DNA of 64,000 nt, taken from UHGV virus genome UHGV-1366603; one strand, 5' to 3'. This DNA is from a virus. Within the stretch, counting starts at the first letter, position 1. Each line of letters begins with the position of its first letter. This document shows positions 5,363 through 56,500 of the stretch, one piece after another. The position numbers were made by a program, and so were the translations under genes. The notes beneath the pieces are model-generated. The model saw only the letters and a list, made by a program, of their open reading frames with translations, was not told the origin of the DNA and made no database searches.

Positions 5363-6625
5363 GTGACTACTGCTTATCAAGTGCGGCCTGACAGCGCTTT
5401 TGGCTTCTCTCGTGAGACCCGTACCTGGGGAGCCATCGACGTCACGCAACCCTTAGAAACCTTGTGTTCTGATTACCATATTTTCGAAGTCGGTCTGAGT
5501 GCGCTTGGTAAAGACTATACGTTAATTAGCCAATATCACCTCGCTGACTTACAAAACCGTACCGATACATTACAAGACTGGCTGAATGAAAAAGCCGGTG
5601 TGGTTATCTCTGCGTTGAAAGACGGTTTACCGACGTTAGAGTTTGATTGGGCACACTATCAATCGATTAATGCTGATGTTCCAGTAGAAACCTATCTGTG
5701 TCCTCCTGGTTATCACTACAGTCAAGAATTCAGTATAGACGATGCTGACGACGTTGTGATTGTTTGCGAAGATAAATGGAAAGACAAATACCGTAACGGG
5801 GTGCTGTATAACATCAACGGTCAATGGGTACCACATCAGTCGGATACTGTTGGTGTACGTTTACCGGGTGCAGGTAAGATAGTACGTCGTGCAGGGACAC
5901 CGGATATCGGGTGCATGGTCTTTAGTAAATTGGGGAATGTTAAAACGTACCCCATTGCTAACTTGACCTTAAACAAACTCGACACCACCCGTGACTATTA
6001 TTCCACGTTAATGATTTCTTTACCGGAATCTATTACAGGTAAAACCGTGGGGTTTGTTATCGGGGGACTGATACACTGGTTACCGGTTACTGGGTACTTC
6101 TCCGACAAAGCCATTATGGTGTCGCTACCGAACTTTGACGTTGCGCGTACTGTGTTAGAAACACGTCGCTATTACGATTGGGACAGTATTGGTGTTGGCG
6201 ATTTATCATCGCCGACCAGCGTACAGCGTATCCGCAACCCAGAAACGTTAAAGGCGCTTTTAACCCACGAGTCGTCGTTTATCTTTACGGTGGATAATCC
6301 GTATCTGGAAGAAGAAGTTGTGGGGGTTTCTCACAACGCTATCTGGGGACGTTTATACCTTAAAGATCCTACTGACCCTGACGGGGAAAAGCAGCTGGGG
6401 TATCTGTTAAACCGCTTCGGTAAAACCGTTGCCTATTGGCCGACGTGGGAAGAAGGGGAATGGGTATTTAACACCACGGAGTTCGACAGTCAAAACTACG
6501 TGTTCCGTGAAGCCCGCTGGTATAACCAGAAGAAAATTAACGATGCACAGGCAATCGTAGGGCCTTTCGGTCCCTGGGAAAAAGTCTATTTGGAAATGCA
6601 TCGTTTCCGTGCAAGAAAAAAATAA
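5363..6625 (+). CDS. hypothetical protein (~420 aa)
   Basis: In-frame GTG at 5363 with AGGAAAAG 5 nt upstream. The longer TTG-initiated ORF from 5147 would overlap the upstream gene by ~150 nt. No recognisable domain. Confidence 0.5.
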   Translation: MTTAYQVRPDSAFGFSRETRTWGAIDVTQPLETLCSDYHIFEVGLSALGKDYTLISQYHLADLQNRTDTLQDWLNEKAGVVISALKDGLPTLEFDWAHYQSINADVPVETYLCPPGYHYSQEFSIDDADDVVIVCEDKWKDKYRNGVLYNINGQWVPHQSDTVGVRLPGAGKIVRRAGTPDIGCMVFSKLGNVKTYPIANLTLNKLDTTRDYYSTLMISLPESITGKTVGFVIGGLIHWLPVTGYFSDKAIMVSLPNFDVARTVLETRRYYDWDSIGVGDLSSPTSVQRIRNPETLKALLTHESSFIFTVDNPYLEEEVVGVSHNAIWGRLYLKDPTDPDGEKQLGYLLNRFGKTVAYWPTWEEGEWVFNTTEFDSQNYVFREARWYNQKKINDAQAIVGPFGPWEKVYLEMHRFRARKK

Positions 6626-6630
6626 GTAAC

Positions 6631-6672
6631 CTCCTACCCTCTTAGAGGGTAGGAGTAGCACGTTTTTTTTTT
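6631..6672 (+). terminator. terminator-like hairpin (CTCCTACCCT-CTTAG-AGGGTAGGAG) followed by T10
   Basis: 10-bp stem between convergent genes 5363..6625 and 6676..6885; the T-run starts ~8 nt after the stem. Confidence 0.45.
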
Positions 6673-30938: not shown

Positions 30939-31487
30939 ATGAAATTACTTATTGATTTCTCTCTGAGCTCGTCACGAGACAGGCTAAATAAAATACTTAC
31001 TGAAATGCGAAATAAAGTGACGTTAGAACTGCACGACGCGATAGCGGTGTACGAGAGAAAGCTAACAAAAGAGAACAACGGGGAAACCGTGGTGATCTTA
31101 GACGCTAAGGCGATGGTGGATTTTCTGGTAGACGTATTAGAAAGGCGGATTCACGCAGTGATAGAACGACCTTATCTGGTTCGTGTAACTGACCCAGACA
31201 CTACGGTAGAATCAATACTGGAAAAGGCGTTCGTCGACGCAGCACACTATTTACAAAACCATTCCCCAGACGATTTCGAAACGATTTACGTTGGCGTTAT
31301 ACAGCAACAGAATGCTGAAACCAACATCGTGGATACCGTCTGCTGGAGCGATATCCTTACTAATGAAACCATGTCTCGTATTCGAGATATCTTTATTGAA
31401 AATCTGGCATTAGTGAAAAGGGTGTGTAGTTCCGAGATTATTTATTTATCATCAAAACTTCAACCCGCTAAGACAAGCACCGTTTAA
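30939..31487 (+). CDS. hypothetical protein (182 aa)
   Basis: ORF track; start 2 nt after the upstream stop. Confidence 0.6.
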   Translation: MKLLIDFSLSSSRDRLNKILTEMRNKVTLELHDAIAVYERKLTKENNGETVVILDAKAMVDFLVDVLERRIHAVIERPYLVRVTDPDTTVESILEKAFVDAAHYLQNHSPDDFETIYVGVIQQQNAETNIVDTVCWSDILTNETMSRIRDIFIENLALVKRVCSSEIIYLSSKLQPAKTSTV

Positions 31488-31504
31488 CTTAAGGAGATTA
31501 AAAC

Positions 31505-31993
31505 ATGAATTTAAATCAAATTATCGCTTTGAAAAACTCAGACATCATTCATGAATTCCTCAACCATACCGACCGTGTACATGCCACGATCAGAAATAAA
31601 CTCGCACCAATGGTCGTCGATACTCCCTGGATGGCTGGCGTTGCCAGCGACTACATCGAAAATAGTTACAGAGCCCGACTTATAACGAATCTGGATGATT
31701 TCTTTGTTGGTTTCTTTGGCGGAATCACAAAATCATTTATCGATAGACGGTTATACGGAATCCGTATTGAAACATTACAATCGCTAATTAACGAATACCA
31801 TAACGGTTTTATCCCAGCAATTGTACCGCCTTATGCAGAAGGTGAGTGGCGTCGTTTCTATAGTCAAATTTGGGGCAATGAAGCACACTCACACGGTATT
31901 GTGGAAATCATTAGCTACGATCAAGGTATGCTCGCACTACACCTGTGGGAATGGCTAAAAGCTAACTATCCAAATTACGTCAAGATCGACTAA
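31505..31993 (+). CDS. hypothetical protein (162 aa)
   Basis: ORF track; SD TAAGGAG. Confidence 0.6.
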   Translation: MNLNQIIALKNSDIIHEFLNHTDRVHATIRNKLAPMVVDTPWMAGVASDYIENSYRARLITNLDDFFVGFFGGITKSFIDRRLYGIRIETLQSLINEYHNGFIPAIVPPYAEGEWRRFYSQIWGNEAHSHGIVEIISYDQGMLALHLWEWLKANYPNYVKID

Positions 31994-31998
31994 TATAC

Positions 31999-32030
31999 AC
32001 CCTAGCCTCGGCTAGGGTTACTTTATTTTA
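31999..32030 (+). terminator. rho-independent terminator (CCCTAGCC-loop-GGCTAGGG + T-run)
   Basis: Hairpin followed by TTACTTTATTTT. Confidence 0.5.
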
Positions 32031-32051
32031 ACCATTTTAGGAGTATATACC

Positions 32052-32984
32052 ATGTATTTGTACAAAAGTAAAAAAGTAAAAGGTATTAAAGACTGTCTTA
32101 GACAAATGGGGAGTCAGCATCTAGAAAATGTCATGGAAGAAAACCAAACAAAAGAAAATCCTGTCTCGAAATGGATAAAAAAGAATCGTAACCATTTAAC
32201 CAATTCCTTTATACCCTACGACACTGAGTTAGGTCTCAAAGATCCACGTTCCCTTCACGCACAAACGTTGGCAATCGGGTGGCTATATGGCGGGGTTTCC
32301 TTAATATCCAACCAAGCACTTAGAGAACTTGTTTTCGAGACTGAGATGCCCAGTAAATTCCCTGAAGAATGGTTGGACTTTATACCCGCATGGACTGTGG
32401 CAATCGACGTAGGTAAAGAGGATGAGACTTTCTTTCTCGGCTATCGAAAAAATGGGAAGAAAAGGTTTATTATAATCGCTACAAATACTGATTACGGGTT
32501 AACAGAAGGAGTTACCACAATTGCCACTTGTTCGTTAGAGCTTCGTAGTGTAGGAAACGGGCTTGTTGAAATTGATTATACAACTGGCGTACAGACCGAA
32601 GAAGAGAAGATGTTATGGTTATCTCTGGCCAAAGCCGCCACTTCGATGATATTTCTGTGCACGCTAATCCCGCCTAATTACAGGGAGTCTTTTAATGATA
32701 TTAAGTTCAGGGAAATCAAAAAGAACGGTAGTATTAGTTACGACGTTAAACCGCGAGAACGTGATGTTAAGGTTGATATCACACCAGGACAAGTAAAATA
32801 TCTAAAAGGATTTAACACCGACTTGAAAGCCATGCAGGGTATCAAACACGCCAAAGCTGCACATATTCGTCGTGCACACTGGCGTAGATATTGGGTCGGT
32901 CCAAGAGATGGGGAAAGGAAGAGAAAACTTTGCTGGATTCCACCGACGTTTGTCCGAGGCTACGTACCCCACACGCAAGACTAG
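32052..32984 (+). CDS. hypothetical protein, paralog pair 3 (Arg-rich C-terminal HIRRAHWRR..W.WI.PTF motif)
   Basis: C-terminus KAAHIRRAHWRRYWVGPRDGERKRKLCWIPPTFVRGY; SD TTAGGAG. Confidence 0.6.
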   Translation: MYLYKSKKVKGIKDCLRQMGSQHLENVMEENQTKENPVSKWIKKNRNHLTNSFIPYDTELGLKDPRSLHAQTLAIGWLYGGVSLISNQALRELVFETEMPSKFPEEWLDFIPAWTVAIDVGKEDETFFLGYRKNGKKRFIIIATNTDYGLTEGVTTIATCSLELRSVGNGLVEIDYTTGVQTEEEKMLWLSLAKAATSMIFLCTLIPPNYRESFNDIKFREIKKNGSISYDVKPRERDVKVDITPGQVKYLKGFNTDLKAMQGIKHAKAAHIRRAHWRRYWVGPRDGERKRKLCWIPPTFVRGYVPHTQD

Positions 32985-32995
32985 GAGAATTATAA

Positions 32996-33879
32996 TGTTA
33001 AGACGCAGAATTTATGGAGACACGCTTCGTCGTATTAGTGAAGCTATAGAGACTGCACACAAAGACTTGTTTGGTCTGAAAGAAGATCGGTTTCTAACGT
33101 TTGTCAGGGAACACAAGAGACAACTCCCCGTAACCTTTCTGCCCGTTAACGACCCAACGTACCGTGAGTTCGGCACCACCAAACAGGTGCCGTATTCTAT
33201 TCGCCAGTCGTTAGGTTTGGGTTGGCAATACGCAGGTATTGAAATTATCTCTGATAAAGAGCTGATGGGATTACTTGCAGACACAGAACGTTTAACGGAT
33301 ATTCCGTACGCGTGGATTGAAGCCATCCCTTCATTCACCTTTTCCGTGACTGTCAAGATTAACGAACTTCCTGCTACGCTCTTTATCGGTCGTCGTAAAT
33401 TCGAAGGTGAAGAAGTATTGTTCGTTTTACGATGGGTGGAGATAAATCAGCGGCACTGTTGGTCAACCAAGATTTATCGGTTCAACAGAAAGGCAGACGA
33501 CTTTGTTAGTTTAGAACCTTACTTTGCTAACGAGTCAAAGGACGAGGAACTTCTGGATGAGGTACATATCGGTTTATATCTTTCCTCGCGGGTGAAGAAA
33601 TCGGAACGCGAGCGACGGGAATACCGTGGTAGAACGACACGTTACGTACCTGATACAGAAATCCTCCCACGCAGAGAACCTGTCGTTGTTGACGTAAGTC
33701 CAGTACAACGCGAAGACTTAGAGAAGCAACGCAGAGAAGGCAGGAGAATCTGTTTAACGCCGCATCGCGCAGCGCACATACGCAGAGCACATTGGAAACG
33801 GGTCTGGTGTGGACCAATGACAGGGACACGCTGGCAGGAATGGCGTTGGATTGCACCCACCTTTATATCCGGTTTTTAG
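32996..33879 (+). CDS. hypothetical protein, paralog pair 3
   Basis: ATG at 32996 preceded by AGGAGA; C-terminus RAAHIRRAHWKRVWCGPMTGTRWQEWRWIAPTFISGF. Confidence 0.6.
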
Positions 33880-33896
33880 CGTGAAAATAAAGATTA

Positions 33897-33942
33897 CCCC
33901 TAGACCTTGTGGTCTAGGGGTAGCTTTTACTTATTATTTTTT
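33897..33942. terminator. bidirectional terminator (CCCCTAGACC-TTGT-GGTCTAGGGG, T-runs both sides)
   Basis: 10-bp stem between convergent genes 32996..33879 and 33934..34689. Confidence 0.6.
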
Positions 33943-34689
33943 GTTTGCCTTCAGCGCTTTCAGGCGTTCAGCCGTCACGTTCAGGCATTCAATCAATTCG
34001 TTCACTTGTTTCATGAACAAACCAAACAGTTCAACCCAATCGGATGCAAAGTCTAACATCGCTGTCAGTTCTTTTGCCACATTAGGATGGATGTTTTGTT
34101 CAGACAGAATCGTTGCAGAAGCTTTAATGGACTCGATGGATTTATCGATGTTCGTACGAAGTTTCTTCGTGATTTCAACGTTCAGTGCTTTTGCACGGTT
34201 AAACGCAATATCGATTTCCGTAGCACTGTGGTACGTTTTCTCAATCGGACGCTGGTCAATAACGTTGTTGGTGTAAGACTTAGCCAACTGGTTAACCAGG
34301 TCTTTCGGATTCACGTTACGTAACGGAATGTTAACGTTTTTATAACGGAAACCGATAGGTAATGACAGTACGCCCACATCATGTGTAAGGGCGGAAAGTT
34401 GCAACTCAACAGGTAAAAGGACACCGTCGTAGATCTTCTGTAATGAACTCCACACCGATTCTAAGCGGTTAATGTGATCCATTACGTAGGTATTGAAGCC
34501 TGGCGGTACAATAACCAACATGCCTGCAAAGTGTAAGAATTTTTCCTGTTGCATCCACTTGGAAACGTCTGACATGTCGTCGTAAGTGGTTAATGCAATC
34601 TCTTGTTGAGGGCCACTGAACCCTTTGGGTAAGATTGCAGACGCTTTAGCGGCAAAGCTAGTTAACGCTGCAAGTGGATTTACGTTCAT
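33934..34689 (-). CDS. hypothetical protein (251 aa)
   Basis: ORF track; no motif recognised. Confidence 0.6.
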   Translation of the reverse strand: MNVNPLAALTSFAAKASAILPKGFSGPQQEIALTTYDDMSDVSKWMQQEKFLHFAGMLVIVPPGFNTYVMDHINRLESVWSSLQKIYDGVLLPVELQLSALTHDVGVLSLPIGFRYKNVNIPLRNVNPKDLVNQLAKSYTNNVIDQRPIEKTYHSATEIDIAFNRAKALNVEITKKLRTNIDKSIESIKASATILSEQNIHPNVAKELTAMLDFASDWVELFGLFMKQVNELIECLNVTAERLKALKANKK

Positions 34690-35101: not shown

Positions 35102-36598
35102 ATGGCAGGCCCAACTAAGCAAGTTATCGGTGAAGTAATTCGTCCTCGTTTTAACGTTTATACCATCATGGACCACGCCTTAGGCAACTACGAAAGAGGC
35201 GAAGATGGTTTATACTACCTTAACGGTGGTTTTGCCCACATCATGGGTTTCGCGGGTCGTGGTAACACCTTCAAATCTACACTGTTGGATTTCTGTATCT
35301 TCCAAATCCTGCAACGCTATAAAGCAGAGTGGGGTTCGAAATACGATACCGAAGTGTCTGCTGCCCTCGATCGCTTAGAGACTGGTTATATTTCTGCCAT
35401 GCACGCCAACGGTATTGACGATGGAACTTCGGTACTGGAACTTATTCACGAAGGTCGTTATAACCTCGTTGGTTCTGACGTGATGCCAGGGGAACAGTAT
35501 TACAGTGACTATATTCGTGACGAAGTGGAAAAACGCTTCAAGCAGTATATGTCTGGTAAAACCCGTGTAACCCCGTTCCTTGACCCAGTTCGTCGTAAGC
35601 AAAAAGAAATCCTTGACCCGTGGCTGTATTCTATCGACTCCCTGTCTGAGTGGCACTCGTCTTCTCTGGAAGACAAGCACGCTAAAACGGATATCGGTGA
35701 TTCCGATCAGAACATTCTCAACGCCCACGACGCCTTACAGAAATCGAACATGATGAGCCGTTGGCCGTCTGCGTTTGCCCGTGGTGGTTTCTACATGGGC
35801 TTTGTTGCACAGATGGCGGACGACTCCGGTAAGGCGATGGCTGGCGGTCGTCAAGGGCAGAAAGCAAACGCGAAACTGCTGGACGATGCGAACGACGATC
35901 TCAAATTCGCAGGGATTCCTCGTCGTCAGTTAAGCTTCCTGACTAACTCGTTTATTGTTGCGACAAAATCAGGCGAGCTGAAAAAAGACCAGAGTTATAA
36001 TGCCCAGACCGGTGTTAACGAAGAACTTTACCCAACTGCACGTTCAAAAGCCATGAACGCGTCGGTTAACGACCTGAAAGTTATCACCTTTACGCAATAC
36101 CGTGCTAAAGGCGGTCACACGGGTGTGAAGTTCCAGATGATCTTCTCACAAGAGATGGGTCTACTGTACCACCTGAGCCTGTGGCATTACCTGAGTGACA
36201 CCCTGAAAAAATCCGAATTTGGGTTTACGTCCAGCGGTAGCGGTGGTTCCATTAAAGAACTCCAGATTCTTCCTGGTGTTAAATTCCAGCGTACGACGAT
36301 TCGTGACATGATTGACGATAACCCGAAACTGCGTCGGGCATTAGAAATCACGGCTGCGATTGCGTACATGCAAAACAACTACCATCGTTTAGAGGTTAAA
36401 TACCACCTCACGATGGAAGAAATCTACAAACTCATTGATGAAAAATGGGATTGGAATGAGATTCTGGAAAACACCGTAGAATACTGGATGTTTAAAGACC
36501 AGGAAACGAAAGGTGGTAAACGCACGTTAACTGCCCGTACGATTCTGGGTATGGCCGTGGACGGCCTGGAACCGAAGTTCCTCACCAAAAAGAAATAA
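35102..36598 (+). CDS. RecA/UvsX-like P-loop ATPase (putative recombinase)
   Basis: ..GGFAHIMGFAGRGNTFKSTLLD.. resembles the T4 UvsX P-loop ..GLTIFAGPSKHFKSNMSL..; candidate Walker B ..PWLYSIDSLSEW.. Confidence 0.45.
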   Translation: MAGPTKQVIGEVIRPRFNVYTIMDHALGNYERGEDGLYYLNGGFAHIMGFAGRGNTFKSTLLDFCIFQILQRYKAEWGSKYDTEVSAALDRLETGYISAMHANGIDDGTSVLELIHEGRYNLVGSDVMPGEQYYSDYIRDEVEKRFKQYMSGKTRVTPFLDPVRRKQKEILDPWLYSIDSLSEWHSSSLEDKHAKTDIGDSDQNILNAHDALQKSNMMSRWPSAFARGGFYMGFVAQMADDSGKAMAGGRQGQKANAKLLDDANDDLKFAGIPRRQLSFLTNSFIVATKSGELKKDQSYNAQTGVNEELYPTARSKAMNASVNDLKVITFTQYRAKGGHTGVKFQMIFSQEMGLLYHLSLWHYLSDTLKKSEFGFTSSGSGGSIKELQILPGVKFQRTTIRDMIDDNPKLRRALEITAAIAYMQNNYHRLEVKYHLTMEEIYKLIDEKWDWNEILENTVEYWMFKDQETKGGKRTLTARTILGMAVDGLEPKFLTKKK

Positions 36599-48298: not shown

Positions 48299-50500
48299 TT
48301 AACGTGCTTGCGGCAGGAAGATGTTCGCGATCTGGCGTGCTGGGATAACATCCAGTGCCGAGTTAATAAAACTACCCTGCGACCATGCAGATGCCCAGTT
48401 TTGTGCCCAGATGCTCGCATTAATCTTGGCACGCGCAATACCGTTAGTACGTTCGTACAACGTAGCACCACCTAAACACGCCATAAATTCACTGAATTTG
48501 TTATCATCATCCCACACACCTGTGTCAGTAACAATGGGCATGTACATAACGCGAGTCAAATCACGAATAGTAACAGAGATGTCGCAAGACAGTGGGACGG
48601 AATCACCTGGCCGCCAACCTAAACCACCCACACCGAACTGTAACGACATCGACGTTACCATTGCATTACGGAACGAGAAACGTCCTTGAGAGTAACACTC
48701 TAAGTAGAACGGGTGGGTAAAGGATTGTTTACCGGTTGCGAGCGGACACACTGCTGCAATCCAAAACGAAAGCGGAACTAACAAATCCTGGAAAATATCC
48801 AGGTCGTTACCCGACCAACAACGTAAAGGAATGGTTAAAGTAATGTCGTCTCCTGATGCGTCAGAACTATCCCAGACTTCTGGGAAGTCTATCACCGAGG
48901 AGTTGTACAACGACATTATCCCTGTCAAATGTAGGGTGTCTGCAACGCCTCGCATCGCTGACTTAATACCGGAAACTAAAGCATCGACCGCACTAAAACC
49001 GGTTTGTCCACCCGACAGGTTAACCTCCAACGAACGCGCTTTTGCTGTTGCGGAGTTTACCATCCCGGAAATCTCAGGTTCTTTCGTGGAGTTAGAGAAC
49101 GAACGCGAAACGGTGTCTTTACCGTCAATACGCCAAGTAACCCATTGTGAACCGTTCTTAATCTCTGACAGGACGTTATCGCCAACATCCGCAACCATGT
49201 CGGTAAACTCTTTAAAGAACGTTCCTACTTTGGATTCATCTTTACCTTTGTTCATCCAATCTTGGACTTGAACGATGTCTCCTTCGGTAAGGTCTTCTGG
49301 GTTCTTTTCATCTAACGTAGAGTTCAACTGCTTAGCTGCTGCCGCACGTTTCTCCATGGTCTGACGGGTTTTTTCCTGCTCAGATTGGATTTCTGCGGCT
49401 TGCTGTTGTAGTTCATTAGCGGTACCACCCACCACCAGGCTATTACTCATCTGTCCGATGAGCTGGTCTTCCTGACTGTCAATATCCTGTATCGGAGAAG
49501 CGTAACCACCCTTTTCACTTCTGGCAACTTTTTCCAAGTCGTATAGCGAGACTTCGAACTGTTCTGCTTTTAGACGTACGTTATCGCTGTAAGTAGCATT
49601 ATAGTAAAACGCACGTAAGCGACTAGCAAACAATTCTTCATCGTCACCGGATTCTACACGAATCGCATCGATAGTTTTAGCCTGATAGTTCGCCAAGGTC
49701 TGGTAACGGTTAATCATTCGGTAAATGTCAAACTCACCGTTCGCTTTCCAGACTTCGGGTAAGGATTTATACCACTCTTCACGATCTTTATGGTAACTAT
49801 TTTCTTTGCTTTCGGTATCGTAGCCCAACGCAAAAGTCCCTAACACCCCTGTAGGTACCAAACGACGGTAAATTAGCTGGGTATTCAGGATGTTTTGCAC
49901 CGCGCGCAAATACAGATGCATTGTGGGCTTAACGTAATAGTATCTTGACGTTTCTTTATTCAGCGCTGCCGAAAGAATCCTCGGTGTAATCAGAATCACC
50001 GCAAACGCTACAGTACCCACCGTCGCCCAAATAGCAGCCGCACCGATGTACGATGCCGCTGTTCGAATAATTCCTGGATAGTCACCTGTACGCGCAAGAT
50101 ACGCCAGGTTAGAATCGTACATGTTCGCAAAGAACGAAGCCATGCCCAGATACTTCGGTTTACCGAAACGGCAATGAACGTAAAATGAGTTCTGGCTGAT
50201 ACTTTCGTAGTAATACGTCCCTAAGCGATAAGACCCTGCGGCTGAGGAGTTATAAAGGGACTCGGTACCGCTCTTAGTCGCGTCGGGTTGTGCAAACGCG
50301 CCTGTTGAGGAAGGGTCTGCAAAAAGTGTAAACTGGGGCGGTGTGTTAATCGCTTTACTGCCACCAACTGTGGTGTCTTCAAACGACATCATACCACCGG
50401 AATAGCGGCGCAAGGCCAGGAAACGTTCATCTCGGCCATCGACTGCGCCATTAAATAGGTTTTTGACCCAGCTTGAGTCGTTAACTGTTCTAGCGTCCAC
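48299..50500 (-). CDS. large hypothetical virion-type protein (733 aa) with internal hydrophobic segment
   Basis: ORF track; hydrophobic stretch ..IGAAAIWATVGTVAFAVILI..; coiled-coil-like central region. Confidence 0.6.
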   Translation of the reverse strand: MDARTVNDSSWVKNLFNGAVDGRDERFLALRRYSGGMMSFEDTTVGGSKAINTPPQFTLFADPSSTGAFAQPDATKSGTESLYNSSAAGSYRLGTYYYESISQNSFYVHCRFGKPKYLGMASFFANMYDSNLAYLARTGDYPGIIRTAASYIGAAAIWATVGTVAFAVILITPRILSAALNKETSRYYYVKPTMHLYLRAVQNILNTQLIYRRLVPTGVLGTFALGYDTESKENSYHKDREEWYKSLPEVWKANGEFDIYRMINRYQTLANYQAKTIDAIRVESGDDEELFASRLRAFYYNATYSDNVRLKAEQFEVSLYDLEKVARSEKGGYASPIQDIDSQEDQLIGQMSNSLVVGGTANELQQQAAEIQSEQEKTRQTMEKRAAAAKQLNSTLDEKNPEDLTEGDIVQVQDWMNKGKDESKVGTFFKEFTDMVADVGDNVLSEIKNGSQWVTWRIDGKDTVSRSFSNSTKEPEISGMVNSATAKARSLEVNLSGGQTGFSAVDALVSGIKSAMRGVADTLHLTGIMSLYNSSVIDFPEVWDSSDASGDDITLTIPLRCWSGNDLDIFQDLLVPLSFWIAAVCPLATGKQSFTHPFYLECYSQGRFSFRNAMVTSMSLQFGVGGLGWRPGDSVPLSCDISVTIRDLTRVMYMPIVTDTGVWDDDNKFSEFMACLGGATLYERTNGIARAKINASIWAQNWASAWSQGSFINSALDVIPARQIANIFLPQAR

Positions 50501-50545
50501 TTTCTACCTCTTTAAGATGGGGGTGGTTTCCCACCCCCGTTTGTA

Positions 50546-53500
50546 TTAACCTGCACGTCTAACGTTAAGCTGTCGTGCTGGCTGTTCAACGGACATTTGT
50601 CGTGATGCTGAACCTGCTGGTGCCATAGGTTGAGCCGATGCGGTGTTTTGTACCGGTTGTGGACGTTGCTTAAGGATCGTGACAATCTCTTTGAGATAAC
50701 CCGCCGATTCTTTCGCAACAGCCAACTGCTGAACACTAATCGGATCGCCACTGCTAAGTGTAGGTCCGTTTTGTGCATCAGAAGTAACCGCAGGTGCCGG
50801 TTTACTCGTCGCTGCTGCGCGCTGCACAGCACCTTCTTTCACCTTCTCGACATCTTCTTCAGGCAACCCTTCATTTCTGGCTCCAGTTGCAACAGTCTCC
50901 CCAATCATAGAGGCGTCACCGCCTGCACTACTACCGCCAGGTGACGGTACTGCTGGACCACCACTGGTTGCAGCTTTGACGTTGTCCGCACCCATTGCAC
51001 CTTTCTCTGCTAACGCTTCATCACGACGCGCAGCATTGGACGCAGGCAAGTTATCCGTCGCTCCAGAAATTGATGGATCGTTAGCTGCCCCTGCTGCTAC
51101 CGCCGGAGAGGAGGCAACCGCAGGCGTTAGCCCTTTCACCATGTCTTTCGTTGAAGCTGGGTTAGCCGCAATTTCGTTTGTCGCCACAGCACCCATACGG
51201 CGGTTCAGTTCATTAATAACTTCACCAACAGTACGAATACGAACAATCTGCTTGCCGCGCATTTCGTAGAAGACCCCCTTATTACCACTAAGGATTTGAG
51301 GAGTAATGCCTTCTGCTTTGTCGGCTGGCATGTTCGGATTCTGCCGCCATGCATTAAGGAACTTCTTACCACCGCCTGGGCCCAAGAAGTGATACAGATA
51401 CGCAACAGCCGGAGGCGGTTCTACACCACCTAAGTCTTTCTGCGCCTGCATGATATTGTCACGAATAAACTGTACCCCGAGGATGGTATTTGCCCACGGG
51501 TCGTACTGGTTTACTTGCGGTATACCGTACCGACGAGAGTACCCTTTCATCATTCCAGACCACGTTTTGTCAATGAACTGGAACAACCCTGCTGCTGACG
51601 CACCTGGGTTCTTGACACCATATTTGAAATCAGATTCGGCTTTCGCCATCGCAATCGCGACCGCAGGCGGAACACCTAAGGTATTTGCGACATCCGCAAT
51701 CATCGCTTTAACGCCTTCTACGTTAGGTGACTTACCATCACCCAGTTTGCTGATTGGATACTTCTCAGCCAAGGTTTTGTAATCACCTTCTTTGACGTCC
51801 CCGAGTTTAATCCCGGATTGGCCCGTAGAGAACTTCGCGTAATTGCTAATACCCATCTCACCCACAACTTGAGACAGATCACCCGGTGTACCGTAAGACG
51901 ACCCACCGTTTGGCAAGTACCCATCCTTAGACGCTGTACCCCAATCAACAACACCTTTGAAACGATCTTTGGTGTCTTCGTCGGTTTGGTACATTCTCGT
52001 CGCACGATCGGCTTTCTGCCACTTCGCACGTTTACCTGCTGCGGGTGTAGACCGCAGGGTATCACGAACAGCCAGGTCAGGTTCTTTGGACAGTTCTTTC
52101 AGGTTGGCAAGTTCAGTAGCAACAGAACCTGCGTCGGTGTTTGCTTCTTCACCCAGTGGGTTGAACGGAATCTCCCACACGGACTGACGAATACCACCCT
52201 TCATGTTGTAAGCGCCACGAATCATCAACGCCAATTCGTACATGAACCCACCGGATACTTTCAGTTCGGTAGGGTCTGCTTGCGGAATGTAACGTTTCAG
52301 ACCAACGACGTAGGTCATATACGCCGGTAAGAAACGGTTGTAGAACCAGTTCTTACAACGCTCCTCTTTAGGACCACCTATCAGGTCAGGCGAGATAACC
52401 GCAATGGCTTCTTTCCAGTTGCCTTTATAGGTACAGTTCTTCACATCAATGTCTTTCAACACGTTCTTCTCTAACAGTGTGAAAAGATTACGCGTTGTTT
52501 GGTTGATAGTAACCGCACCGTAGGTTTTCCACCTGACCGATTCCAGGTCTTCCAAATCACTTTTCTTCGGTAAGGAATGCCAGTCAACTTGGATTTGAAC
52601 CTGTTCAGTTCCGTCTTCCCAACCTTCGACCTTCGCAACTTTCTCGTTACGTTCAGCATCTGCATTCGCCAGTACCTGACTGGTTTCAGCAACGGACGCA
52701 ACTTTGTGGCCTTCGACAGCATCACGCATACCTGAACGTTGTTTCCGTTTGTCGTCAGTACGCATGTTGATTGACCGCCACACACGTTCCTGTGCTTCGA
52801 CAACCTCTTCCCCTGACAAGAACTCTGCCGGAGTAAAGGTAACGAAATCCCACGCTTTAGAGAACCAACCCTGGTTAACTTTACGCGGGTCAGTCAATGA
52901 ACGGAATTCCGCAGAATCTTTACCCATCTTCATTTTGTTGTAGAGGGTAATCATATCCGCTTTCGACACTTTCTTCGGATCACCAACATCTGCCAAAGCG
53001 ATGTCGTTATCCATCGACTTCAGTGCTGAAATCCAGCGGAGGTAAATCGGTGCGAAACGTTGTAGCATAAACGCAGTAAATGCTAACATCTCACCACGTT
53101 CTTCCAAGTTTACACCGAACCCTTCTGCGAGTTTCTTCACGTCTTCGGAAGACAAGCCACGTAATTGTGCTTCACCCCCTTCGGTATACGAGACGTAAGG
53201 TTTCAAAGCGTCTTCTAAATAACGGGCTTTCATACCGTCTTCAGAAGACCACTGGTCGTAGTCACGGAAACCGTATTGTGCCAGACGCATATAGTCGAGG
53301 TACTGTGCTTTCACACGGGTAGCGCATTTATACGCCCAATAACCCAGACCAGCGGCAGTCGCACCGATCGCAATTGCAGGCCAACCCACCGCAGCCACTA
53401 CCGTAGATGCAGCCGAGGCTACCGCAGTCACTGCCGGTACCGCTAAACGTTGTACAGCAAACTTACCAACGTTCCACGCTGCTTTACCGAGGAACCCGGT

Positions 53501-56500
53501 AGGTTTAAAAATACCCCACTTCGCAACTTTGCCCAGTATCGAACCCACCGTACCTAAGATACTCACGATTGGTCCTACTAACGGTAAGTCTTTGAGGAAG
53601 TCCATCACCCCGCCTTTACGTCCTTTCTGCTCAGCGGTTTTCTTGGCTTTCTCTTCTTCCTTAGAACGTCTACGACGACGGAAGAATTGGAAGTAGTCAC
53701 GTTTTTCATCGTTGGCTGCCGGTTTGTTACGTTGTCCGAACTTACTGAACATCGTACGAATCAGGCCATCAGGTGCACCAGCACGTTCCGCAGAGTCACG
53801 CATGGTGTTAAACCAGGACATTTCCTGGAGGTTAACCATCCGGTTTAAACGTTCCAATAATGCTGAACCAACACTCTTCGCTTTCTGCTTACCTTTGTTG
53901 ATAACGCGTCCTGCGGTATCCGTTGCGGTTTCGAAATCCTCCTTCGCTGCGTTAAACACGCGTGTTGGAGAAACCTTACCACGAGCGTACAAGTGTTGAC
54001 GGTAAAACTCCGCAACGTCATCATCACGACCCGCTAAACGCGACTCCGCCCGATAACGTGTGGCAATATCGTAGCGTGGGTCACGGAAGCTATCTACTGT
54101 TTCACCAAAGCGCCCACGGAAACGGTCAAACCACCCTTTACCCGCAGCGCCCCAACGAGACAGTCTATCGCCAACGCCATGACGGAAACGTGAGAATCGG
54201 TCACGTTGTCTGCCTCGCCAATCCCGGAAATTCTGGAAGTAATCTTTAAATCCGTCGCGGAAATCCTTAACACGGTTAAGCATCCCTTTGATAGATTTCG
54301 AGCCAACGTTTTTCTCCAGTTGCTCCGTCCAGGATTCATCTTCAGGCTCACCGTCTAAACGACGGTTAAGGAGTTTATAGATACGAATCAGGATATGGTT
54401 GGTCTTACGGCCATTCGACCAAGAGAACATGCTGAAGCCACCGCCAGAACCACCTTCCTTACGATTCTGCCACCACCGGGTAAGCGGGTTGTCGGTCGCT
54501 AACTCTTTGAATTTCTCAAAGCCACGTTTTGCATTGTTCCACAAACGAGCAGGCATTCCGGTTACGCGAGAAATCATGCTTTGTAAACGTGTTTTCTCAC
54601 TCCCCTCAGGAATCTCATTAAGCCACTCACGCGCTTTCTCGAAGATAGACGCTGCTCTTGGCGAGATTAGACCAATCAGTTTCTTCGGTAAGTTAACAGC
54701 TTTGTTTACTGCTGTACCTGCTTTACCGGAGATATACTGGAACAGGGCCTGGAGTTTACCGCCTTTATAGAAGCGCAGTTTACCCGCAGCCGCTAAGTCT
54801 GCCGCTGCGAGAATCAAGTTCCCGGCTTCGTCAACAATATCACGACCCAGCTTAATGTCGTCTAACGAGCGGAGTTGTACCAGCTTGTTGGTTTTAGGGT
54901 CAGCCTGATAATACTCACCTGCCTCTAAACGGCTTCCTTGTAAAACAACATTGCCTTTCTCGTCGTAGATGTCCCGAACACCAAGAACACCTTTCCCGAA
55001 GGCGACCGCCGAATTCCAGCCTGTGGACAACGTACCAGTAACTAAACCTTTCAGTCGTTCAAAAACACCTGGACCGTCAGATGGCCCACCGGAGAATTTC
55101 CCACGAATAAAACTGCCCAGTGACTGTAAACGCCCTTTCCCTCTCAGGAACATGTTCTTCGCAAAACGACCCGCGCCCGTACCGGTGTCCCAAAGTACGC
55201 CCGCCCAACGACGGAACAGCCCACTTTCACCAAGCACGATGCGTTTACGCTTGCGTTTGTTACCGGTGCTACCTGCATCTTCAGAAGCGTCACCCTCGTC
55301 ACCGTCACGACCACCACCTAAGCTGGCCAGCAGGATACCTTCCTCATCCATGTTCTTAACATGTTTCAGAATTTCCTGCACGGTGTTGGATTCGGACTTA
55401 TTACGAATAGCATCAACGATTCTATCAAACTGTTGCTCTAACCCTGCGGTGGTATCAGGACGTTCGCTTAGCAGTTCAACAAAGTTGGTAGATTTTTCAC
55501 CGTAGAGGACAGCAGCAAGTTGTCGTGCCGACAGTCCACGGCCACCGCGACCGCCTTTACCTTTAACGGTGTCAATTGTCGACTCGTCACCGGTTACGGA
55601 GGCGTCTACCCCTAAACGACGTAAATAGTCACCTAGCGCAGAACCGTTTTTCAGTTTGCGCTGGATTTCTTGTTCACGCGTTAACGAACGACCGGAACGG
55701 GTTTTCCCCATGGCCAGGTCGTTATACAGCGTATACGGATCGTTAATGTCTTTATCTACATCAAACCGATCGTTCTTCGCATCGTACTTAAAGATACCTG
55801 CATCACGTAACGCATTCTCACCGTAGATAATTGAAGCTTCGTCTACCGTGTTTTGACGTGCACGAATTGTTGACTGAATGGCCGAAATCTTACCAGCGAT
55901 TTCGTTGCTAAGTTCGTGATGACCGCCTGTCAGTTCTGAAGACCGTGCTTCTAAGACCGCCTGAATCGCTTCTACCGCGTTTGCATTCATGTAACGATAC
56001 ATGTGCATCGGGTCTTTCAGCAGACTGCCTACGTCGAACGCCTTACCTTCAGACGCACGTGATTCGATATAGTCCGCCAGCGCTTGGCGAGTTTTCGAAT
56101 CCAGAGTTTTGTCTTTGTCGATAAAGTCAACGGTTTCGTTAATGTACTGCTGTAAACGCTTCCGCTGTTCATCGTTCGCAACCGCTTTACGGACACGGTT
56201 GCCGACAACTTTACGGTCAATCATCCCACGCGTGGTTAAATCGTACACCTGGTCGTGGTGTTCGCCGTACCCGCGACGAATAGATTTGTTAATCTCCGTC
56301 AGCAAAGTCGGGATGACTTCCGTGATGCTAAGATACGCTTTACGGTCGAACTTCGCAGCGGCGGATAACGCTTCTGCTGAACGTTCTTCTAAAGCTAATC
56401 CCTCACGACGCAGCGGTGTCACTAACCCCATCTCGTGCATTAAACGGAAGACGGTGGCCAGTGGGCCGTCTATCTCACCAGCAATCGCCGAGTTAGAGAT

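What the first reader, a model, noticed from the sequence alone, without database searches (positions are those of the whole stretch)
32052..33879. Paralog pair with an Arg/Trp-rich C-terminal motif HIRRAHWRR..W.GP....W.WI.PTF
Two adjacent genes end in nearly the same 35-aa basic segment and also share an N-terminal region (..LG.GW.Y.G...IS...L..L..). The second has a further Arg-rich stretch just upstream of the motif. The composition suggests nucleic-acid binding, but I cannot place the motif in a known family.
Basis: seen in the sequence. Interest (0 to 1): 0.5.

Follow-up and report, generated by a model that had tools for sequence, protein, structure and literature searches.

The report
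Tandem AcrVA2-like genes, jumbo phage
The two neighbouring genes are diverged copies of the known AcrVA2/FinQ family, whose founding member shuts off one chosen protein by destroying its mRNA while it is being translated; they sit in a nucleus-forming giant phage, so the motif has a known family and is not a new kind of nucleic-acid binder.

Summary
Gene A (32052-32984, 310 aa) and gene B (32995-33879, 294 aa) are full-length paralogs (BLASTP E=2e-24). They share a basic C-terminal block (21 of 36 residues identical) and an N-terminal GW.Y.G...IS(D/N) block.

- AcrVA2 (PDB 7ci1) is the only solved structure matched by sequence (E=5e-42 through a bridging profile).
- The motif HIRRAHW is AcrVA2's H286/R288/H291. 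Those residues are needed for translation-coupled destruction of Cas12a mRNA, but not for binding the target.

The window comes from a jumbo phage related to Asesino and SPN3US (Chimalliviridae), probably infecting Enterobacter. The gene slot is accessory. It holds 0 copies in SPN3US, 1 in EC001 and Asesino, and 2 here. Across six near-identical strains, B is 98-99% conserved. The first ~216 residues of A fall into divergent alleles (69-83% identity), while A's C-terminal module stays constant.

The most likely function is two nascent-chain-directed mRNA silencers aimed at non-Cas12a targets. That function is inferred, not shown.

Verdict: new members of a known kind, of moderate interest.

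The parts
31999..32018 (+). Terminator-like hairpin (ACCCTAGCC-TCGG-GGCTAGGGT followed by a T-rich tail) between the upstream 162-aa gene and gene A. It marks the 5' edge of the two-gene cassette.
   Evidence: The same arrangement (hairpin, then RBS, then gene) precedes the single-copy homolog in phage EC001.
32039..32043 (+). Shine-Dalgarno AGGAG, 8 nt before the ATG of gene A.
   Evidence: Read directly from the sequence.
32052..32984 (+). Gene A, an AcrVA2-like protein of 310 aa.
32268..32312 (+). Gene A block L73-N87 (LAIGWLYGGVSLISN). W77 corresponds to AcrVA2 W79. N87 sits at the AcrVA2 D89 position, where most relatives have D.
   Evidence: Alignments (the W77 column is invariant or at least 90% conserved). 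The profile-to-7ci1 alignment places the family W and D on AcrVA2 W79 and D89.
32052..32700 (+). Allele-variable part of gene A, residues 1 to about 216: the N-terminal helices, the central beta-sheet and the long helix. This is the presumed target-recognition module.
   Evidence: The window and five other strains fall into allele groups of 69-83% identity while the flanking genes are 98-100% identical. DNA identity drops to 50-80% here and returns to about 98% after about position 32700. dS is about 1.2-1.4 and dN about 0.28.
32856..32966 (+). Gene A C-terminal domain, residues 269-305 (AAHIRRAHWRRYWVGPRDGERKRKLCWIPPTFVRGY). H271, R273 and H276 correspond to AcrVA2 H286, R288 and H291. It is predicted as a four-stranded beta unit.
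   Evidence: These columns are invariant in every alignment. Predicted strands are 271-273, 276-282, 290-296 and 299-302. The role of these residues is described.
32983..32987 (+). Shine-Dalgarno AGGAG for gene B. It overlaps the stop codon of gene A and lies 7 nt before the ATG. The 10-nt gap between the genes implies co-transcription.
   Evidence: Read directly from the sequence.
32995..33879 (+). Gene B, an AcrVA2-like protein of 294 aa.
33211..33255 (+). Gene B block L73-D87 (LGLGWQYAGIEIISD). W77 and D87 correspond to AcrVA2 W79 and D89.
33589..33768 (+). Gene B Arg-rich linker, residues about 199-258. It is largely predicted disordered and corresponds to the basic linker before the C-terminal domain in the family.
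   Evidence: Composition. pLDDT is below 50 at 201-224 and 249-258. The family consensus has a basic P.P.R..K linker.
33769..33876 (+). Gene B C-terminal domain, residues 259-294 (AAHIRRAHWKRVWCGPMTGTRWQEWRWIAPTFISGF), carrying H261, R263 and H266.
33894..33923 (.). Bidirectional terminator-like hairpin (13-bp stem with T-rich tails on both strands) between gene B and the convergent 251-aa gene. It marks the 3' edge of the cassette.
   Evidence: inverted repeat I3. The equivalent hairpin in EC001 and SPN3US is seen.
31505..31993 (+). The 162-aa gene directly upstream. It belongs to the same hypervariable segment (about 31457-32700). Its function is unknown and it may or may not work together with gene A.
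   Evidence: It is 28-71% identical between strains, and its copy number varies between 1 and 2. It has no Pfam or PHROG match.

Best explanation
Genes A and B are two old, diverged, co-transcribed members of the AcrVA2/FinQ protein family (Pfam PF26125). They sit in an accessory slot of a jumbo phage related to Asesino and SPN3US (Chimalliviridae), whose host is probably Enterobacter.

By analogy with AcrVA2, each protein would use its N-terminal helical domain and central domain to recognise a short peptide on a specific target protein as it emerges from the ribosome. Its conserved basic C-terminal beta domain (H-x-R-x-x-H: H271/R273/H276 in A, H261/R263/H266 in B) would then trigger destruction of the mRNA being translated, so that the target is never made.

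The two copies differ almost completely in the recognition part, so they would silence two different targets. The target of B would be conserved. The target of A would be variable, because A's recognition part is exchanged by recombination between otherwise identical phages. The targets are probably host or rival-element proteins, such as inducible defences, and not Cas12a.

What is shown here: paralogy, family membership, fold, conservation of the functional residues, the operon anatomy, accessory status, and the pattern of a variable recognition module joined to a constant C-terminal module.

What is inferred: the activity itself, recognition of a nascent chain, and the nature of the targets.

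I put family membership at about 0.95. The confidence given below is for the functional mechanism.
For: Family membership:
- PDB phmmer with A hits only AcrVA2 7ci1, at the motif (E=9e-5).
- A profile built only from the jumbo-phage clade hits only 7ci1, over profile positions 101-306 (E=1.6e-5).
- That same profile finds 3061 cluster representatives at E<=1e-3 in 1.84 billion proteins.
- A profile of 51 sequences (genes A and B plus 49 of those representatives) hits 7ci1 over its full length at E=5e-42.
- An HMM of 116 representatives, built without A, B or their phage relatives, scores A at 84 bits and B at 58 bits.
- PF26125 is named 'AcrVA2-like' and is recorded on both tandem genes in five related contigs.

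Fold:
- The predicted layout is N-terminal helices, a mixed central domain and a four-strand C-terminal unit. This matches the published description of AcrVA2.

Functional residues:
- The H, R and H of the motif are invariant in all alignments.
- In AcrVA2, the mutations H286A, R288A and H291A abolish mRNA down-regulation but keep target binding. W79A and D89A give partial loss of function.

Modularity:
- Between six strains the flanking genes are 98-100% identical and B is 97.6-99.3% identical.
- Residues 1 to about 216 of A form divergent alleles (dN about 0.28, dS above 1). Residues 217 to the end of A stay under strong constraint, with dN/dS of 0.03-0.11.

Accessory status:
- SPN3US lacks the gene cleanly. 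EC001, of the same species, carries it on a 987-bp insertion.
- EC001 and SaP7 alleles are 42.9% identical while their neighbouring genes are 96-100% identical.

Marino et al. note that most family members occur where Cas12a is absent, and they propose other targets for them.
Against: - No activity has been measured for any member of the family in a jumbo phage.
- How the motif causes mRNA loss is unknown even for AcrVA2.
- Sequence identity to AcrVA2 is only 11-12% in the structural alignment, and the models are of moderate confidence (A) or low confidence (B).
- In the window's allele, A carries N and not D at the AcrVA2 D89 position.
- The raised dS in A's variable part shows import of old alleles, not demonstrable positive selection (dN/dS 0.2-0.35).
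- The gene lies in a replication and transcription gene neighbourhood (exonuclease, RNase H-like, UvsX-like, RNA polymerase fragments). That is not the classic setting of an anti-defence island.
- A terminator-like hairpin directly upstream leaves its promoter unidentified.
Confidence: 0.55

Rival explanations
1. These are inter-element competition factors of the FinQ type. The proteins would lower the expression of genes belonging to co-resident plasmids, prophages or co-infecting phages, as FinQ does for F-plasmid transfer genes, and would not act on host defence genes. The molecular mechanism would be the same as in the best explanation, with a different class of target.
For: FinQ is a recognised member of the family and reduces the mRNA of F transfer genes. 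A jumbo-phage homolog (Special G gene 231) is annotated 'putative protein FinQ'. Allelic diversity and presence/absence polymorphism fit any arms race, including one between mobile elements.
Against: A strictly lytic, nucleus-forming phage has only a short window in which rivals matter. Nothing in the window points to a particular rival. This reading cannot be separated from the best explanation by sequence alone.
Confidence: 0.15
2. The proteins would be general nucleic-acid-binding proteins whose Arg/Trp-rich C-terminus binds DNA or RNA directly, for example in phage mRNA handling or genome metabolism, with no polypeptide-specific targeting.
For: The C-terminal domains are very basic (pI 11.3 and 11.8), and B has a further Arg-rich disordered linker. 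The neighbouring genes are nucleic-acid enzymes. The motif is needed for an RNA-level outcome in AcrVA2.
Confidence: 0.15
3. These are genuine anti-CRISPRs that inhibit Cas12a (type V-A), like AcrVA2 itself.
For: Family membership.
Against: Relatives of this phage infect Erwinia, Salmonella, E. coli and Enterobacter. To my knowledge type V-A systems are not typical of these hosts; I did not test this here. Marino et al. report that most homologs occur without Cas12a. Identity to AcrVA2 in the recognition domains is negligible. Nucleus-forming phages are already shielded from DNA-targeting CRISPR nucleases.
Confidence: 0.03
4. These are core replication, transcription or virion components that share only an ancient fold with AcrVA2 and have lost its activity.
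For: The position is syntenic next to the conserved 251-aa gene and the UvsX-like gene across several chimallivirus genera.
Against: The gene is absent from SPN3US with an otherwise intact locus. Its copy number varies from 0 to 2. It shows extreme allelic divergence. The H-x-R-x-x-H residues are strictly retained, which argues that the family's activity is kept.
Confidence: 0.05

Closest known systems
AcrVA2 (Moraxella bovoculi prophage; PDB 7ci1/7ci2; Pfam PF26125 AcrVA2-like)
   Same: - Similar length (294-310 aa here, 322 aa for AcrVA2).
- Colinear full-length alignment through family profiles.
- The same C-terminal PHIRR(G/A)HW...W.G...W.P..V block, with H286/R288/H291 conserved.
- The same W79(/D89) block.
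- Carried by a mobile element.
   Different: - Only 11-12% identity in the structural alignment, and the recognition domains are unrelated in sequence.
- The host range of the phage clade makes Cas12a an unlikely target.
- The genes sit in a strictly lytic nucleus-forming jumbo phage, not a prophage.
- They occur as a tandem pair with one hypervariable and one conserved copy.
- No AcrVA1-type partner gene was noticed nearby.
FinQ (fertility inhibition protein of IncI-type plasmids)
   Same: Marino et al. report it as an AcrVA2 homolog with the conserved HxR motif and a similar predicted C-terminal domain. It lowers the mRNA of a rival element's genes. A related jumbo-phage gene is already annotated 'putative protein FinQ'.
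   Different: FinQ is plasmid-borne and acts on the F transfer operon. I made no direct comparison with a FinQ sequence: tblastn of A against 72,556 plasmids found only a mis-filed phage genome.
Syntenic single-copy homologs in Chimalliviridae: Asesino gp235, EC001 MGA_211, SaP7, ChrisDB gp236, pEa_SNUABM_4 (PHROG 6160)
   Same: They occupy the same slot between the small upstream genes and the conserved convergent 251-aa gene and UvsX-like gene. The cassette anatomy is the same (hairpin, RBS, gene, bidirectional terminator). They are 27-31% identical to A and B and fall in the same clade in a neighbour-joining tree.
   Different: Those phages carry one copy, or none in SPN3US, whereas this phage carries two. 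All are annotated as hypothetical proteins.

Membership tests
AcrVA2-like (Pfam PF26125) | Significant sequence match to the family model | tested here: met
   The local Pfam copy lacks this model and returns nothing. However, PF26125:AcrVA2-like is precomputed, with no weak or faint mark, on the 97%-identical A homolog and the 98-99%-identical B homologs. My own HMM of 116 family representatives scores A at 84 bits (E=5e-28) and B at 58 bits (E=4e-20). The bridging profile hits 7ci1 at E=5e-42.
AcrVA2-like (Pfam PF26125) | AcrVA2 fold: N-terminal helical domain, central alpha/beta domain and a small four-strand C-terminal domain | tested here: met
AcrVA2-like (Pfam PF26125) | Conserved C-terminal H-x-R-x-x-H, corresponding to AcrVA2 H286, R288 and H291, which are required for mRNA down-regulation | tested here: met
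   A has H271, R273 and H276. B has H261, R263 and H266. These columns are invariant in alignments of 9 to 51 sequences.
AcrVA2-like (Pfam PF26125) | Conserved N-terminal W and D, corresponding to AcrVA2 W79 and D89, whose mutation gives partial loss of function | tested here: inconclusive
   W is present in both (W77). D is present in B (D87) and in other alleles of A, but the window's allele of A has N87.
AcrVA2-like (Pfam PF26125) | Translation-dependent, polypeptide-specific down-regulation of a target mRNA | not testable with these tools
   This needs expression, RNA-seq and recoding experiments. It has been shown only for AcrVA2 itself.
Anti-CRISPR type V-A (functional class) | Inhibits Cas12a immunity | not testable with these tools
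The context argues against it, since the phage clade infects Enterobacterales and most family members occur without Cas12a. I therefore do not file these genes as anti-CRISPRs.
FinQ fertility inhibitors | Plasmid-borne inhibitor of F-type conjugation | tested here: not met
   The genes are in a phage genome. The homology to FinQ is taken from Marino et al. and from a GenBank annotation, not from a direct comparison made here.
Chimalliviridae (genomic context) | Synteny and protein similarity with classified members; multisubunit RNA polymerase fragments | tested here: met
   Gene order matches Asesino (Erskinevirus) and EC001/SaP7 (Seoulvirus), and both genera are Chimalliviridae in the NCBI taxonomy. 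The UvsX-like protein is 82-83% identical and the 251-aa protein 74-77% identical. RNA polymerase beta-subunit fragments are present. Chimallin and PhuZ were not looked for in the window.

The most novel reading that the evidence does not exclude
The pair would be a natural two-channel system of 'programmable' gene silencing in a nucleus-forming phage. A constant C-terminal effector module would destroy any mRNA whose nascent product is recognised by an exchangeable N-terminal and central module. Phage populations would then retarget gene A by swapping that module through recombination, to follow variable host defence proteins, while gene B holds a fixed target. If so, the natural allele series in isogenic phage backgrounds would reveal which proteins AcrVA2-family members target when Cas12a is absent. 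The series consists of at least three A alleles, the 43%-identical EC001 and SaP7 alleles, and the SPN3US null. It would also show which residues encode peptide specificity.
Probability: 0.3. Interest if true: 0.65.

Novelty: new member of a known kind. Interest (0 to 1): 0.38.

Why it matters
AcrVA2 is so far the only bacterial-virus protein reported to destroy a specific mRNA by reading the protein being made from it. Two questions about its large family remain open: what most of the thousands of homologs target, and how the C-terminal motif works.

This locus adds no new family, but it offers a convenient natural experiment:
- Two diverged copies sit side by side in one phage.
- One copy has a recognition half that differs between otherwise identical phages, joined to an unchanged effector half.
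- Related phages have one copy or none at the same site.

These contrasts could be used to find non-Cas12a targets and to map the determinants of specificity. They could also test whether nucleus-forming phages, which already hide their DNA, use translation-coupled silencing against defences that act in the cytoplasm.

There is a practical result as well. About a dozen 'hypothetical protein' annotations, and one 'putative mycothiosynthase' annotation, in jumbo phage genomes can now be given a family name.

Tried and rejected
- Local Pfam-A and NCBIfam scans of A, B and 10 relatives found nothing. This is because the local Pfam copy lacks PF26125, not because the proteins are orphans. The name came from the precomputed annotation.
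- A literature search for 'PF26125' found nothing.
- Megablast of 4 kb against 50,697 phage records found no match. The phage is known only from metagenomes and from one record filed as a plasmid.
- Recent gene conversion between the two C-terminal blocks is rejected, because there is no DNA-level repeat.
- C-terminal-only tblastn hits in RisingSun ('putative mycothiosynthase') and FBKp24 suggested that the motif might be a module fused to other domains. This is rejected: both are full-length AcrVA2-like proteins of 333 and 324 aa.
- The sigma-70 promoter scan gave one site inside gene A, fewer than the shuffled expectation, so no promoter is assigned.
- Foldseek against AFDB50 was unavailable. 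BFVD returned only uncharacterised phage proteins.
- The word-indexed homolog search returned only 3-14 proteins per run. The exhaustive HMMER search was needed to see the true size of the family.
- Simple positive selection on gene A is not supported. dN/dS is 0.2-0.35 with saturated dS, which points to recombination of old alleles.
Full report
**1. What is there**

The interval contains two + strand genes. Gene A runs from ATG 32052 to TAG 32984 (310 aa). Gene B is best read from ATG 32995 to 33879 (294 aa).

The mechanical ORF list extends B back to GTG 32872, inside A. However, AGGAG lies 7 nt before ATG 32995 and overlaps A's stop codon, and gene callers on five related contigs all give a 294-aa product. 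A has its own AGGAG 8 nt before its ATG.

A terminator-like hairpin (31999-32018) separates A from the upstream gene. A 13-bp bidirectional hairpin (33894-33923) separates B from the convergent 251-aa gene. The pair is therefore a compact, co-transcribed two-gene cassette. No promoter could be assigned.

**2. Checking the observation**

BLASTP of A against B gives 24% identity over the whole length with E=2e-24. The paralogy is therefore not a chance resemblance.

- 53.7% identity in the C-terminal 41 aligned residues.
- 35% in residues 66-120.
- 12% in the central beta-sheet.
- 19% in the following helix and linker.

The C-terminal blocks read AAHIRRAHWRRYWVGPRDGERKRKLCWIPPTFVRGY in A and AAHIRRAHWKRVWCGPMTGTRWQEWRWIAPTFISGF in B, with 21 of 36 residues identical. 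The N-terminal blocks read LAIGWLYGGVSLISN in A and LGLGWQYAGIEIISD in B.

B's extra Arg-rich stretch is real: B has 37 Arg against 19 in A, and residues about 199-258 are predicted disordered.

At the DNA level the two C-terminal blocks share only 57 of 108 nt, and no repeat is detected. The duplication is therefore old, and the motif is maintained by selection on the protein.

**3. Which family it belongs to**

Both proteins match PHROG 6160, a family of unknown function. Local Pfam and NCBIfam scans were empty.

Sequence evidence:
- A phmmer search of all PDB sequences with A returned one hit, the anti-CRISPR AcrVA2 (7ci1). The alignment runs through the motif: HIRRAHWRRYWVGP...WIPPTFV against HIRRGHWHGYWQG...WQPAVFV, E=9e-5.
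- A profile made only from the jumbo-phage clade again hit only 7ci1, now over profile positions 101-306 (E=1.6e-5).
- The same profile, run exhaustively against 1.84 billion cluster representatives, found 3061 proteins at E<=1e-3 and 1301 at E<=1e-10. Most are 300-350 aa long and aligned from the GW block to the C-terminus.
- A profile of 51 sequences (genes A and B plus 49 of those representatives) matched AcrVA2 over its full length at E=5e-42.
- An HMM I built from 116 representatives, without A, B or their phage relatives, scored A at 84 bits over residues 30-304 and B at 58 bits.
- The precomputed annotation of related contigs names the domain on both tandem genes as PF26125:AcrVA2-like. 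This explains the PF26125.1 tag seen on every homolog. The local Pfam copy simply lacks that model.

Structural evidence:
- AlphaFold2 models were built from an 18-sequence alignment. A reached pLDDT 70.8 and pTM 0.64. B reached pLDDT 58.7 and pTM 0.50.
- The predicted order of elements is N-terminal helices, a mixed central domain and a four-stranded C-terminal unit. This agrees with the published three-domain description of AcrVA2.

**4. What the motif means in the characterised relative**

Marino et al. (bioRxiv 10.1101/2022.11.29.518452) show the following:
- It causes translation-dependent loss of cas12a mRNA, independent of promoter and codon sequence.
- H286A, R288A and H291A abolish the down-regulation, but the mutants still bind Cas12a stably.
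- W79A and D89A give partial defects.

- H286, R288 and H291 correspond to H271, R273 and H276 in A and to H261, R263 and H266 in B. These columns are invariant in all my alignments.
- W79 corresponds to W77 in both proteins.
- D89 corresponds to D87 in B and N87 in A, although other alleles of A have D.

The same paper reports about 1,800 orthologs on diverse mobile elements, 'including plasmids and megaphages', typically where Cas12a is absent. It names the plasmid fertility inhibitor FinQ as a homolog and proposes that the family acts on other targets. A 2026 review still lists the decay mechanism as unknown. Al-Shayeb et al. 2020 had already noted proteins in huge phages that cluster with AcrVA2.

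**5. Genomic context**

The window belongs to a jumbo phage.
- It encodes multisubunit RNA polymerase beta fragments, an SbcC-like protein, an exonuclease, an RNase H-like protein, a UvsX-like recombinase and large virion proteins.
- Gene order around the pair matches Erwinia phage Asesino (Erskinevirus) and the E. coli and Salmonella phages EC001 and SaP7 (Seoulvirus), and also ChrisDB. Erskinevirus and Seoulvirus are both Chimalliviridae in the NCBI taxonomy.
- The UvsX-like protein is 82-83% identical to those phages and the 251-aa protein 74-77%. The AcrVA2-like genes are only 27-31% identical.
- tblastn against plasmids found one record, Enterobacter ludwigii 51A:C 'plasmid unnamed1' (NZ_CP134650.1, 222,441 bp, circular). 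It carries the same locus, with both genes annotated as hypothetical. This is a strain of the same phage filed as a plasmid, and it suggests Enterobacter as the host.
- Only these two ORFs in the window match the family.
- At least 77 phage records, mostly Erwinia, Klebsiella, Serratia and Dickeya jumbo phages, carry a family member. One is annotated 'putative protein FinQ' and one 'putative mycothiosynthase'.

**6. An accessory, polymorphic slot (new here)**

SPN3US itself lacks the gene. Relative to SPN3US, EC001 has a clean 987-bp insertion consisting of hairpin, RBS and gene, with flanks 97-99% identical. EC001 and SaP7 belong to the same species, yet their alleles are only 42.9% identical while neighbouring genes are 96-100% identical. 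Copy number at this slot is thus 0, 1 or 2 (2 in the window's phage).

I compared six strains of the window's phage: the window, L007, L012, L013, L014 and L017.
- The 251-aa and UvsX-like proteins are 100% identical, and B is 97.6-99.3% identical.
- A falls into allele groups of 69-83% identity.
- The 161/162-aa gene just upstream is 28-71% identical and varies in copy number.
- The divergent DNA spans about 31457-32700 and ends inside A near residue 216.
- Nei-Gojobori estimates between allele groups: for A residues 1-216, dS is about 1.2-1.4 and dN about 0.28 (dN/dS 0.19-0.35 over all strain pairs). For A residues 217 to the end, dN/dS is 0.03-0.11. For B, dS is 0.06-0.14 and dN/dS 0.02-0.14.

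The picture is recombinational exchange of old, diverged alleles of the N-terminal and central part of A. That part is joined to a constant linker and C-terminal module.

An unbootstrapped neighbour-joining tree puts A and B in the same clade as the syntenic single-copy genes. This is consistent with an old tandem duplication within this phage lineage.

**7. How it most likely works**

Shown here: paralogy, family, fold, conserved functional residues, cassette anatomy, dispensability, and the variable-recognition / constant-C-terminal pattern.

Inferred by analogy with AcrVA2: each protein binds a peptide on a nascent target through its N-terminal and central domains. Through the H-x-R-x-x-H domain it then triggers loss of the mRNA being translated. 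Because A and B share almost nothing in the recognition part, they should have different targets, that of A varying between host populations.

Cas12a is an unlikely target in Enterobacterales. This rests on my own knowledge plus the statement, and was not tested here. Nucleus-forming phages are in any case shielded from DNA-targeting nucleases. Cytoplasmic, inducible or RNA-directed defences, or the genes of rival elements, are more plausible targets.

It is unproven, however, and is not what gives the family its specificity.

**8. Verdict**

The genes are new members of a known kind.

The modest added value is threefold: the tandem arrangement, the allele-swapped recognition module, and the 0/1/2 copy-number series in nucleus-forming phages. 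Together these make the open question 'what do AcrVA2 homologs target outside Cas12a hosts?' experimentally approachable.

Noticed in passing
window 31457-32051 (162-aa gene at 31505-31993); L012 4415-5941; L007 4931-5942: The gene just upstream of A is hypervariable between otherwise identical strains (28-71% identity). It is present in 1 or 2 copies. A neighbouring 174-aa gene found in the other five strains is missing from the window. None of these genes has a Pfam or PHROG match. This looks like an accessory hotspot that continues into the first 216 codons of gene A.
   Followed up: partly
L017 (NZ_CP134650.1, Enterobacter ludwigii 51A:C 'plasmid unnamed1', 222,441 bp circular): A RefSeq 'plasmid' carries the same locus with the same gene order (exonuclease, RNase H-like protein, the tandem AcrVA2-like pair and a 498-aa gene at the position of the window's UvsX-like gene). 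It is evidently a complete genome of this jumbo phage filed as a plasmid. That points to Enterobacter as the host and possibly to a carrier state.
   Followed up: partly
L018 (SPN3US JN641803, 186719-186782) versus L002 (EC001, 5686-6672): The type strain SPN3US lacks the AcrVA2-like gene entirely. EC001, SaP7, JN03 and Lh1B, which are of the same species or nearly identical to it, have it. The EC001 and SaP7 alleles are only 42.9% identical.
   Followed up: yes
L010 1628-2629 (Erwinia phage RisingSun gp126); KU886222.1 189547-190260 (Special G gene 231): RisingSun gp126 is annotated 'putative mycothiosynthase' but is a full-length AcrVA2-like protein (145 bits to the family HMM), so this is probably a mis-annotation. 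The Special G homolog is annotated 'putative protein FinQ'.
   Followed up: partly
window 31999-32018 and 33894-33923; L002 5690-5715 and 6685-6715: In both the window and EC001 the AcrVA2-like cassette is bracketed by GC-rich hairpins with T-rich tails. SPN3US, which lacks the cassette, has a single hairpin at the junction. The two hairpins in the window share a CCCTAG core. Whether the hairpins act as recombination sites for cassette gain and loss is unknown.
   Followed up: no
window 50001-56000: GC content rises to about 0.50, with a strongly negative GC skew, over the 2378-aa minus-strand gene (tail-fibre-like, with a transglycosylase-like region; phrog_3201 and phrog_4067). The rest of the window is at about 0.42-0.47.
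   Followed up: no
window 33934-34689 (- strand) and 35102-36598: The convergent 251-aa gene (phrog_4682, unknown function) and the UvsX-like gene are 100% identical at the protein level across all six strains. They are 74-83% identical to Asesino and EC001. This contrasts sharply with the adjacent variable cassette.
   Followed up: partly
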